Of a stretch of DNA of 64,000 bases, positions 10,237 through 15,553 are shown piece by piece (positions within the stretch are counted from its first letter, which is position 1; each line of letters starts with the position of its first letter). A program made the position numbers and the translations under genes. Below the pieces are notes generated by a model. It searched no databases and was not told the origin of the DNA. It was given only the letters and a program-made list of their open reading frames with translations. The stretch is from Anolis carolinensis (Eukaryota). The DNA is taken from assembly GCF_035594765.1 (NCBI RefSeq), contig NC_085844.1, positions 196,680,107 to 196,744,106 on the forward strand, written 5' to 3'.

Positions 10237-10539
10237 TGTCAGCTCACCACAGCCGCTCCTGAATGAACACACAAGACTCTCTGTGATATCACCAGAAACT
10301 TTTACTGTAGGAAACATGAACATCAGAAAAGCCAAGAATGGGATACTACGGCCAACCCTCCTTTATATACCCTCCCCCTCATTTGAACAGTCTCTTCCCG
10401 CTCAGTAAAACCCCGCGCAAATTCCCCGCCAAGTCCAGCAGCCGTTTCTTCTCCAAGTCCTGAGCCGCAGGTGTCTTATCAATGTCAGTGACCCTGAAAC
10501 TCAGAGCCACATCCAGGCTCTAGTAGCAGGGTTCTGACA
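10237..10539 (-). repeat. 3' LTR
   Basis: No differences from 15251-15553 seen by eye. Confidence 0.97.
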
Positions 10540-10543
10540 TGGC

Positions 10544-10561
10544 GTCCTCCTCCCCTTCATC
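10544..10561 (-). other. Polypurine tract
   Basis: GATGAAGGGGAGGAGGAC, 4 nt before the 3' LTR. Confidence 0.8.
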
Positions 10562-10585
10562 CTGGAAGGAAAAGATTAAACACAA

Positions 10586-13500
10586 CTATTGTTCTCCGCC
10601 GTCCAGAGTTCCTTTATACTTTTTTAACAGGCTGCAATGGAATACCGGGTGTATCTTTCCTAGGTCCTTGGGTAGCCTCAGCTCATAGGTCACTTCGTTT
10701 ATTCTTTTTGCTACCCTGAATGGTCCTATATAGCGTGGAGCCAATTTCTTGGATGGGAATCCCAATTTTAGGTTTTTTGTGCTCAGCCAAACCAGATCTC
10801 CTTCGCCCAATTTGTCCCCCTCTCGGCGCCTACGATCCGCAAAGAGCTTGTACTTCTTTTGTGTTTCCCGCAATGCCTCTACCACGGTTTGCCACCCTTG
10901 CTTGATTTTGGCCGGCCATTCCTCGTCGGTCTGGCCCTCCCCTTCCTTCCACTCGGGTAGCCTGGGGAAAGGTGCCACCTCCTGTCCGTATACTATTTCG
11001 AATGGGGCACGACCTGTGGCCGAATGTACGGCCCCGTTAAAAGCCATCTCAGCAAACGGTAGAAGGTCCGCCCAATCATCCTGTCTATAATTGGTGTACA
11101 TCCTTAAAAATTGGCACAGTGTCTGTTGGGTACGTTCGACCCCCCCGTTGGTCGCGGGATGAAAGGCCGAGCTCAGGTTCCTTTCTGCTCCTAACAGCTG
11201 TAAGAATTTTCCCCAAAATTTTGCAGTAAATTGGACTCCCCGGTCGCTAATTATTTTGTCGGGACACCCATGTAGGCGATATACATGCTTCACATACAAA
11301 TCAGCAAGTTTTTCAGCTGAAGGGAGTTTTGGCAGGGCCACAAAGTGTGCCTGTTTTGAGAATAGGTCCAATATTGTCCAAATGTATCTGTGGCCTCTGC
11401 TGGGGGGTAGTTCGCCTACAAAATCCATGGCTACGCATTCCCATGGCCTCATGGGCTCCACCACCTTCTGCAATAGCCCCTGGGGCTTCCCCGGTGGTGT
11501 TTTTCCCTCTGCACATAATTCACACTGCGTGACGTACCCCCTGGCGTCTTTCCTCATTCCGGGCCACCAGCATTGTCTGGCCAACAGTTTAATAGTCCTG
11601 GTGGGGCCTAGATGACCCGCACCTTTGTTATCATGGTACTTCCTTAGCATTTCTCGTCTTAAACATTCAGGGATATACAATTTCTTATTTACAAACACCA
11701 AATCCCCACACAATTCTCCCTTTTCTTTGTTAGTTTGTAACCATTTGTCCATTCCATACGCTCGCTTCAACTCTTCCTCCCATATTTCTCCTCCCCCCGT
11801 GGAAATGGCAGTACGTTTGTTTTCTTTGGCCGCTTGTGCTCGAGTTAGTACTGCCAGGCCCCATTGCTTATCTAGGAATAGGCTCCCTTCAGATTCCTGA
11901 ATTCCTCCCCCGTGCTGAGGCATCCGAGAGAGAGCGTCAGCGAGTATGTTATGTTTTCCCTGGAAGAATCTGAGTCTGAAATCAAAACGGCTGAAATATT
12001 GGGCCCATCTAATTTGCTTCGCTGATAGTTTACGAGGGGATCTTAGATACTGTAAATTTCTATGATCAGTCCACACCTCAAACGGTGTTCCACTTCCTTC
12101 CAGAAAGTGTCTCCAGCACTCTAGTGCTTTTAGAATAGCTAAGGCTTCTCTCTCCCAAATTGGCCAGTTTTTTTCTGTATCGCTAAACTTTTTTGACAGA
12201 TAGCCACATGGCTTCAGGTTCCCCCCCTCGTCTTTCTGTAGCAGAACTGCCCCATATGCCCGGTCTGATGCATCGCAATGTAATACAAAGGCTTTAGACA
12301 TATCAGGGTGCTGTAGGACAGGCTCCTCAGTAAAACGCTTTTTAAGGGCTTCGAAAGCTTCCTGGCATTCTATTGTCCATGTCAGTTTGGCCCCTGGGGC
12401 CTTCACTTTGGCTGTTTCTCCCCTGCCTTTAGTCTTTAACAAATCCGTTAATGGCAAAGTGAGGCGCGCAAAGTCCTTGATAAATGTTCTATAGAAGTTT
12501 GCGAACCCTAGGAAGGATTGCAGCTGCTTCCGTGTTTTGGGGGCTTCCCACCCCCTCACGTCTTCTACCTTCGCAGGGTCCATCGCCACTCCCTGGGAGG
12601 AAATCCTATACCCCAGAAAGTCTATCTGGTCTTTATTGAACTCGCACTTGGCAAGCTTCGCATACAGTTTTGCTTCTCTCAACTTTTGCAGGACTTCCCT
12701 GACTAGTTCTATGTGTTGCTCCTTAGTCCGAGATATTATCAATATGTCATCTAAAAAAACAAAGACCCCCTTGTACAACAATGGATGCAACACTTCGTTG
12801 ATTAATTGCATGAACGCGGCACCTCCGCCGCACAAACCGAAGGGGAGCACACGATAATTGAATAATCCGAATGCACAGGAGAAGGCCGTCTTCCACCTGT
12901 CCTCTGGTTTGATCTGCAATTTATGGTACGCTTCAATTAAGTCCAATTTAGTGAATATCTGTCCCTCCGATAACTGGGCGATCAAGTCCTTCACTAAGGG
13001 TAGGGGGTATTTATTTACAGAACTGATTGCATTCAGGCCCCTGTAGTCAATGCAGAGCCTCAGCGTTTGGTCCTTTTTCCGCCTGAACAACACAGGCGCC
13101 CCTAGAGGGGAATTTGAAGGCTCTATGAAACCCCTCGCTAGGTTTTTATCAATGTATTTTCTCAGTTCCTCCTTTTCCCTAGCCGACATTGGGTATATTT
13201 TTGCCTTGGGAAGCTCTGCTCCTGGGACTAGCTCTATCTTCACTTCAACTCTCCGCTTCGGTGGGAAACTGTCTGCTTCCTTCTCATCAAATACGTCCAC
13301 AAAATCCCGATACTCTGGGGGTAATTTATCTGCCAGTTCTGCTATCCTGATAGAGTCTTCCTCCCCCCTTTTCCCCGGCTCTCTCTCCACTTCCTGGCTC
13401 CCTTCTTCCAACTTCATCCTGAAGATCATGCTCTTATCCTCCCAGTTGATTTGCGGGTTGGCCTGCCCCAGCCATGGCATGCCTAGTATAACATTATAGC

Positions 13501-15202: not shown

Positions 15203-15237
15203 GTTACACCTCACCGCTACAGCGGGATGGTGTCCGT

Positions 15238-15248
15238 ATTCTTGGCTT
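15238..15248 (-). other. Primer-binding site, self-priming type
   Basis: AAGCCAAGAAT starts 2 nt inside the 5' LTR boundary and is perfectly complementary to ATTCTTGGCTT in the LTR (15353-15343); no TGG tRNA-type PBS. Confidence 0.85.
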
Positions 15249-15250
15249 AG

Positions 15251-15553
15251 TGTCAGCTCACCACAGCCGCTCCTGAATGAACACACAAGACTCTCTGTGA
15301 TATCACCAGAAACTTTTACTGTAGGAAACATGAACATCAGAAAAGCCAAGAATGGGATACTACGGCCAACCCTCCTTTATATACCCTCCCCCTCATTTGA
15401 ACAGTCTCTTCCCGCTCAGTAAAACCCCGCGCAAATTCCCCGCCAAGTCCAGCAGCCGTTTCTTCTCCAAGTCCTGAGCCGCAGGTGTCTTATCAATGTC
15501 AGTGACCCTGAAACTCAGAGCCACATCCAGGCTCTAGTAGCAGGGTTCTGACA
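15251..15553 (-). repeat. 5' LTR
   Basis: Direct repeat of 10237-10539; contains TATA box and an AGTAAA poly(A)-like signal (15320-15315). Confidence 0.97.
15376..15383 (-). promoter_or_regulatory. LTR TATA box
   Basis: TATATAAA begins 30 nt upstream of the predicted start at 15353. Confidence 0.75.

What the first reader, a model, noticed from the sequence alone, without database searches (positions are those of the whole stretch)
10237..15553. Predicted spliced RNA keeps PBS, PPT and LTRs: a possible route to gag-only elements
Seen: the acceptor ends one base before the PPT, so the spliced RNA would still carry R-U5, PBS, gag, PPT and U3-R. Inference: it could be packaged and copied in trans into 2089-bp LTR-gag-LTR insertions (5317 minus 3228). 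That would be a direct way to create stand-alone capsid genes like the Gypsy gag-derived vertebrate genes (Arc, PNMA, several Mart/Sirh). This depends on the splicing claim being correct.
Basis: inference. Interest (0 to 1): 0.7.

Follow-up and report, generated by a model that had tools for sequence, protein, structure and literature searches.

The report
Spliced lizard retrotransposon RNA, never recopied
A young lizard jumping gene likely splices out its enzyme half to make a coat-protein-only message, but none of the hundreds of genomic copies checked came from that short message, so the proposed route to stand-alone capsid genes is not seen here.

Summary
The stretch is an intact, very young Ty3/Gypsy element on the minus strand, very likely Repbase Gypsy-1_Ano of the green anole. 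It has 303-bp identical LTRs, a 6-bp target duplication and one gag-pol frame. The 3228-nt intron is well supported. Its donor and acceptor rank first of 241 GT and 480 AG sites. One contig from a probable RNA run skips exactly it. RefSeq models end in the spliced tail, and sister families share the design. The proposed consequence fails its own test. No spliced copy was found among 673 donor-side or 896 acceptor-side copies of this family, 594 of a sister family, or 67 of a frameshifting family. Eight internal deletions have unrelated breakpoints. Best reading: a copia-like Gag-only mRNA that is kept out of replication. I found no paper describing this in a vertebrate Gypsy. The scan noted Gag-only splicing once before, in a fungal Gypsy with a short intron (e1-7146718, unchecked).

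The parts
10237..15553 (-). Full-length Ty3/Gypsy LTR retrotransposon, 5317 bp (Gypsy-1_Ano-like)
   Evidence: capsid 164 of 166 aa identical to Gypsy-1_Ano-I as printed in the supplement of PMC11011659 (compared by eye)
15251..15553 (-). 5' LTR, 303 bp, TG...CA, TATATAA at 15383
15343..15353 (-). Predicted self-primer (predicted 5' end of the RNA), complementary to the priming site
   Evidence: start site inferred from the TATA distance, not mapped
15238..15248 (-). Primer-binding site of self-priming type (11 nt)
   Evidence: the same 11-12 nt design in all 9 other elements tested
10586..15202 (-). Single gag-PR-RT-RNaseH-IN-SH3 frame without stop or frameshift (two further in-frame ATGs at 15337 and 15331 inside the LTR)
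13790..15202 (-). gag part (capsid, CCHC knuckle ending at about 13891); coding part of exon 1
10562..13789 (-). 3228-nt GT-AG intron, phase 0, removing protease, RT, RNase H, integrase and the ORF stop
   Evidence: (joint skips 3228, ends CT..AC on +)
10562..10586 (-). Pyrimidine/U-rich tract and acceptor AG, directly after the ORF stop and upstream of the PPT
   Evidence: 13 T in 25 nt
10520..10561 (-). Coding part of exon 2: 13 codons (acidic tail read from the PPT), then TAG inside the 3' LTR
   Evidence: RefSeq models P0001/P0002
10545..10558 (-). Polypurine tract, 14-nt purine run
10237..10539 (-). 3' LTR, identical to the 5' LTR
10231..10236 (.). 6-bp target-site duplication, left copy
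15554..15559 (.). 6-bp target-site duplication, right copy

Best explanation
This intact single-frame Gypsy element likely removes its whole pol region by splicing to make a Gag-only mRNA that supplies the excess capsid protein, and that short RNA is likely kept out of reverse transcription, since no spliced copy turned up among hundreds of genomic insertions. Shown: the frame, the splice signals, one skipping contig, matching gene models, the same design in sister families, and the absence of spliced insertions. Inferred: that the purpose is Gag excess (by analogy with Drosophila copia, BARE1 and EVD). Also inferred: that the exclusion acts at RNA sorting or packaging, with spliced RNA going to ribosomes and a needed signal lying in, or depending on, the intron. 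Loss of the U-rich tract in front of the PPT could add a block at plus-strand priming.
For: Single frame, so no frameshift or readthrough to set Gag:Pol. Top-ranked donor and acceptor; both unchanged in 25 of 25 youngest copies. In 37 further stretches the donor GT was present in 36 and the acceptor AG in all 36 whose fetched stretch included it. A contig in run X8 skips exactly 3228 nt with GT..AG ends; other contigs stop at 10560 and 13789. Of 33 homologues, 24 leave the gag-pol sequence right after the donor Leu for an acidic tail, 7 read on as L-V-S, and 2 lack the knuckle; these include A. sagrei models. The junction peptide has no contiguous match among the 150 scored of 1838 candidates in G000, so the tail needs splicing here. 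The sister single-frame family has rank-1 donor and acceptor at the same places. No spliced insertion: 0 of 673, 0 of 896, 0 of 594, 0 of 67; 95% upper bound about 0.45% for this family and 0.22% for 1334 pooled donor-side copies. BARE1 behaves the same way: spliced RNA exists, but DNA copies of it could not be amplified (PMC3735527, Discussion).
Against: The joint was seen in 1 of 4 probable RNA runs, in one contig with only 28 letters on its short side, and those runs are only guessed to be RNA. RefSeq models are predictions; I did not see their read support. A frameshifting family also has rank-1 donor and acceptor in the same layout, so splicing is not simply a substitute for frameshifting and may also serve to shorten the 3' UTR. 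The U-tract idea cannot be general: the sister family's acceptor lies 52 nt from the LTR, yet it too has no spliced copies. No polysome, particle or protein data were available.
Confidence: 0.72

Rival explanations
1. One reading: the spliced RNA is packaged and copied in trans into LTR-gag-LTR insertions, a route to stand-alone capsid genes.
For: All end signals survive the splice. LTR-gag-LTR elements (TR-GAG) exist in plants (PMC7765848, passages). Probes lose power on old copies: detection about 88% at 2% divergence, 57% at 5%, 21% at 10%.
Against: 0 of 673, 896, 594 and 67 copies carry a junction. Of 87 priming sites paired on contig C1, 74 were full length, 11 differed (none by -3228) and 2 were unpaired. 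The 8 deletions examined end at 0-16 nt microhomologies, and none leaves a whole gag without pol.
Confidence: 0.07
2. The splice is real but incidental: a U-rich tract needed before the PPT mimics an acceptor, a Val-Ser codon pair mimics a donor, and the spliced RNA is low-level noise or mainly a host-side way of making the RNA harmless.
For: A U-rich tract precedes the PPT even in a family with no strong donor near the gag end (L106/L116, donor rank 8). The joint was seen in only 1 of 4 runs. Val-Ser at the gag-protease border could be a protein constraint.
Against: The donor is rank 1, phase 0 and exactly at the gag-protease border in both single-frame families, 102 nt after the knuckle in each. 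Exon 2 stays open and gives an acidic tail like the natively encoded tail of frameshifting relatives. A single-frame element needs some way to make excess Gag (established for copia, BARE1, EVD).
Confidence: 0.15
3. Spliced RNA is reverse-transcribed, but its cDNA fails later (at integration), or such insertions are purged by selection.
For: Only fixed or segregating insertions of one assembly were counted; intermediates were not seen.
Against: Short internally deleted copies with two LTRs do persist (for example L090, about 1.5 kb), although these may have been shortened after insertion. The LTR ends would be unchanged, so no reason for an integration block is apparent (inference).
Confidence: 0.06

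Closest known systems
Drosophila copia spliced Gag RNA (as cited in PMC5580714, PMC3735527, PMC11835246; passages seen, original 1990 paper not read)
   Same: One ORF; a roughly 3-kb intron removes nearly all of pol and gives a Gag-dedicated RNA.
   Different: copia is Ty1/Copia and its spliced form keeps the protease. Here the element is Ty3/Gypsy, the donor lies before the protease, and exon 2 reads the PPT as an acidic tail.
BARE1 of barley (PMC3735527; passages and Discussion part 1) and EVD/ATCOPIA shGAG (PMC5580714; passages)
   Same: [quoted passage not shown]
   Different: Short introns plus lack of R (BARE1) or premature termination (EVD) explain the exclusion there. Here the spliced RNA would keep both ends, so exclusion needs another cause.
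Tf1/sushi group of Ty3/Gypsy elements (PMC6317226, PMC4600332; passages)
   Same: Self-priming type of site with 11-nt complementarity to the LTR; Tf2-1-like SH3 domain at the integrase end.
   Different: No splicing to a Gag mRNA was found described for this group in my searches; no chromodomain hit at E<=0.001; RT tree not built.
Repbase Gypsy-1_Ano (capsid printed in the supplement of PMC11011659)
   Same: 164 of 166 capsid residues identical (by eye).
   Different: Repbase entry itself not seen, so whether it records the splice is unknown.
TR-GAG elements (PMC7765848, passages) and domesticated metaviral gag genes (PMC11011659, section 8 part 1)
   Different: No LTR-gag-LTR copy was found here. 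PEG10 and RTL1 keep pol parts that this splice would remove.

Membership tests
Ty3/Gypsy (Metaviridae) | Order gag-PR-RT-RNaseH-IN | tested here: met
Ty3/Gypsy (Metaviridae) | TG...CA LTRs with target-site duplication, no env | tested here: met
   (ORF stop 24 nt before the acceptor, no room for env); duplication 6 bp in 21 of 25 copies, 5 bp in 4
Tf1/sushi group | Self-priming site complementary to the 5' end of the RNA | tested here: met
   11-nt complementarity 30 nt below TATA; start site and priming not shown
Tf1/sushi group | Placement in an RT/IN phylogeny | not tested
   no tree built
Tf1/sushi group | Chromodomain at the integrase end (many members) | tested here: inconclusive
   Pfam gives SH3_Tf2-1 and no Chromo hit at E<=0.001
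Gypsy-1_Ano (Repbase) | Sequence identity to the family | tested here: met
   capsid only, 164 of 166 aa, by eye
copia/BARE1/EVD-type spliced Gag strategy (works like) | Single ORF with an intron that removes pol coding and ends Gag soon after the junction | tested here: met
copia/BARE1/EVD-type spliced Gag strategy (works like) | Spliced RNA favoured on polysomes and absent from particles | not testable with these tools
   only the absence of genomic spliced copies was tested
Ty1/Copia (member) | Integrase before RT | tested here: not met
TR-GAG / LTR-gag-LTR non-autonomous elements | Genomic copies with two LTRs, gag only and their own target duplications | tested here: not met
   0 precise-junction copies; no whole-gag, pol-less copy among 87 paired sites on C1
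Domesticated metaviral gag genes (PEG10/SIRH, PNMA, ARC) | Single-locus gene conserved in synteny, in the clade of these genes | tested here: not met
   high-copy young element; the proxy named for PEG10/SIRH is Gypsy-15_Ano, a different capsid

The most novel reading that the evidence does not exclude
Squamate Tf1/sushi-type Gypsy elements, from anoles to snakes, share an undescribed splice programme. A donor at the gag-protease border joins an acceptor just before the PPT, the PPT is read as an acidic Gag tail, and the resulting RNA is barred from replication although it keeps every end signal. The route to gag genes would then be in place rather than by retrocopying: the same donor and acceptor let gag be expressed without pol and be spliced to host exons.
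Probability: 0.35. Interest if true: 0.65.

Novelty: new variant of a known kind. Interest (0 to 1): 0.42.

Why it matters
Gag-by-splicing has been presented as a Ty1/Copia strategy; this would be a vertebrate Ty3/Gypsy case with hundreds of intact young copies. The negative result is itself informative. An RNA with R-U5, priming site, PPT and U3-R that is made but never inserted points to an unknown sorting or packaging signal tied to the intron, and that question is testable by sequencing alone. It also means that hundreds of anole 'uncharacterized protein' gene models are transposon Gag isoforms. The proposed shortcut to Arc/PNMA-like genes is not supported.

Tried and rejected
RNA runs: no RNA holder is listed on record; runs X1, X2, X8 and X13 are only guessed RNA, and contig depth was not used to estimate splicing levels. 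Genome-sized runs X15, X17, X19 and the small run X16: the 3228 joint is not among the 15 joints shown, but 21 more were not shown, so this is no evidence. Many shown joints end at recurring short sites and are likely ligation chimeras (inference). Whole-element DNA search scored only 25 of 2092 candidates, so it could not find short copies; pattern counts were used instead. The two non-AG hits are A-to-G point changes in one inverted, unspliced fragment. The first script on loci L001-L025 mis-oriented the minus-strand copies; one search replaces it. Gag-length frames of 460-545 aa found looked like gag-only elements; 20 of the 94 were fetched, and 19 with a knuckle were frameshifting, single-frame or truncated elements, none an LTR-gag-LTR unit; 1 had no knuckle frame. 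Hope that this is the PEG10 proxy Gypsy-15_Ano: rejected. U-tract loss as the sole cause of exclusion: rejected as general because of the sister family; its role in plus-strand priming is recalled, and search returned nothing on it. No structure prediction, complex prediction or phylogeny was run. Paper searches found no description of this splice in a vertebrate Gypsy; subscription papers, Repbase reports and bioRxiv supplements were out of reach and may bear on that claim. Look-ups in earlier findings: searches gave nothing relevant.

Full report
What is there. Window 10237-15553 is a 5317-bp LTR retrotransposon on the minus strand, with two identical 303-bp LTRs and a 6-bp target duplication. 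One frame without stops runs from the LTR to 10586 and carries capsid, protease, RT, RNase H, integrase and an SH3 domain in Ty3/Gypsy order. The family is young and large. The 25 best-scoring copies in G000 differ from the window by 0-7 bases, and exact motifs count 673 donor-side, 708 priming-site and 896 acceptor-side copies. Near-identical proteins are annotated in Anolis carolinensis. The capsid matches Gypsy-1_Ano-I in the supplement of PMC11011659 at 164 of 166 residues (by eye).

The 'PBS'. The bases after the 5' LTR are not a tRNA-type site. Eleven of them pair with the LTR 30 nt below the TATA box; 5 of 2000 shuffles do as well, and the region folds into that duplex. All 9 other elements tested show the same 11-12-nt design. 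This is the self-priming arrangement described for Tf1/sushi elements (PMC6317226 and PMC4600332, passages). Priming itself was not shown.

Is the splice real? The donor at 13789 and the acceptor ending at 10562 rank first of 241 GT and 480 AG sites. The intron is phase 0, starts at the gag-protease border and ends 24 nt after the ORF stop; exon 2 adds 13 mostly acidic residues and stops in the 3' LTR. In 1 of 4 probable RNA runs a contig skips exactly 3228 nt with GT..AG ends. Its short side is only 28 letters and the run type is a guess, but other contigs break at 10560 and 13789. RefSeq models end in this tail: 15 of 15 listed members of one cluster and 7 of 8 of another. That peptide has no contiguous match among the 150 scored of 1838 candidates in G000. 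Among 33 homologues, 24 diverge from gag-pol right after the same Leu, 7 read on as L-V-S, and 2 lack the knuckle. A sister single-frame family, about 64% identical in the matched part of Gag, has rank-1 sites in the same places. I put the splice at about 0.9.

Is the spliced RNA copied back? The test was to count copies in which the base after the donor flank, or before the exon-2 start, departs from the intron. Donor side: 673 with GT, 0 without. Acceptor side: 113 and 0 with a strict probe; 894 and 2 with a broader one, and both exceptions are point changes in one unspliced inverted fragment. Sister family: 164 and 0, then 594 and 0 with a broader probe that includes those. Frameshifting family: 67 and 0. 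These probes would also catch LINE-made processed copies. If 1% of insertions came from spliced RNA, 0 of 673 would have probability 0.001. The probes lose power on old copies (88% at 2% divergence, 57% at 5%, 21% at 10%), and only one assembly was searched. Pairing 87 priming sites with acceptor sites on contig C1 gave 74 full-length, 9 shorter, 2 longer and 2 unpaired. Eight of the 9 shorter ones were aligned: their breaks sit at 0-16-nt microhomologies, never at a splice site, and none keeps a whole gag without pol. The 2 unpaired were full-length.

How it most likely works. A single-frame element needs more Gag than Pol. Drosophila copia, BARE1 and EVD solve this with a spliced Gag mRNA (PMC5580714, passages; PMC3735527, passages and Discussion part 1; PMC11835246 and PMC7197481, passages). 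[quoted passage not shown] The same division of labour is the best fit here (inferred). BARE1 and EVD exclude the spliced RNA by missing ends, whereas this RNA would keep them, so the block must lie elsewhere. The most likely place is RNA sorting or a packaging signal tied to the intron (untested). The acceptor's pyrimidine tract is also the U-rich stretch before the PPT (13 T in 25 nt, against 4 after splicing), so its loss could impair plus-strand priming. That role is recalled and not found in search, and it cannot explain the sister family, whose acceptor is 52 nt from the LTR.

Against a neat story. A frameshifting family shows the same top-ranked donor and acceptor. A second has only the U-rich acceptor-like tract, and a third has neither. 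Splicing is therefore not tied strictly to single frames and may also shorten the 3' UTR behind the gag stop, a role proposed for EVD.

The link to domesticated genes. PEG10's capsid is the best solved-structure hit, but a weak one. PMC11011659 (passages, section 8 part 1, supplement hits) names Gypsy-15_Ano, a different capsid, as the proxy for PEG10/SIRH. It notes that PEG10 keeps a frameshift and protease and RTL1 keeps protease, RT and RNase H, which this splice would remove. It attributes family growth to gene duplication. Nothing here supports retrocopied spliced RNA as their source, and nothing here tests Arc or PNMA directly.

Novelty and verdict. Ten paper searches found spliced Gag RNA for Copia elements and other splices for the plant Gypsy elements Ogre, CRR and Bagy2, but none for a vertebrate Gypsy; much literature and Repbase were out of reach. 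Protein-level hints extend the design to A. sagrei and to snakes. Verdict: observation confirmed, splice likely real and functional, gag-only insertion route not supported in this genome. New variant of a known kind; interest 0.42.

Noticed in passing
window 10231-10236 / 15554-15559; L001-L025: Target duplications are 6 bp in 21 of 25 young copies and 5 bp in 4. Six is rare among plant LTR elements (0.4%, PMC6317226 passage); no vertebrate figure was checked.
   Followed up: partly
window 10563 and 13955 (runs X8 and X1): One contig leaves the element at the acceptor, and another at a weaker GT (13954, rank 12), each running on for 255 or more letters of other sequence: likely host-element chimeric splicing at some copy.
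   Followed up: no
L098-L103, L107, L109, L115: A frameshifting anole Gypsy family with a GGGAAAC site at the gag end (the PEG10-type heptamer, recalled) also has a rank-1 donor just past the gag stop and a rank-1 acceptor 23-25 nt before the 3' LTR in the 3 copies scored; 0 of 67 spliced copies.
   Followed up: partly
proteins P0100, P0105, P0107, P0108, P0115, P0126, P0181, P0219: Read-through relatives carry Val-Ser 25-27 residues before the protease motif (5 of 8), and gag-only models from Crotalus, Vipera and Ahaetulla end or diverge just after the matching Met. This hints at the same splice in snakes; DNA not seen.
   Followed up: partly
window 15337, 15331: The gag frame is open back into the 5' LTR, with two weak-context ATGs inside the predicted self-priming hairpin; RefSeq models use both the long (529 aa) and short (484 aa) starts.
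   Followed up: no
G000:C1:147.25 Mb and 187.21 Mb: Pairs of donor sites 5014 bp apart suggest tandem elements sharing one LTR.
   Followed up: no
protein P0087: An Ahaetulla gene model fuses a related Gag to a PTK6-like kinase; could be an annotation artefact or a real chimera.
   Followed up: no
L049-L085: 26 copies about 2% from the window element show 1579 synonymous against 469 non-synonymous codon differences (not independent), and 25 of 26 have an unbroken frame.
   Followed up: partly
window 19240-22889 (+): Two long frames that look like a CR1-type LINE (endonuclease and RT motifs recognised by eye).
   Followed up: no
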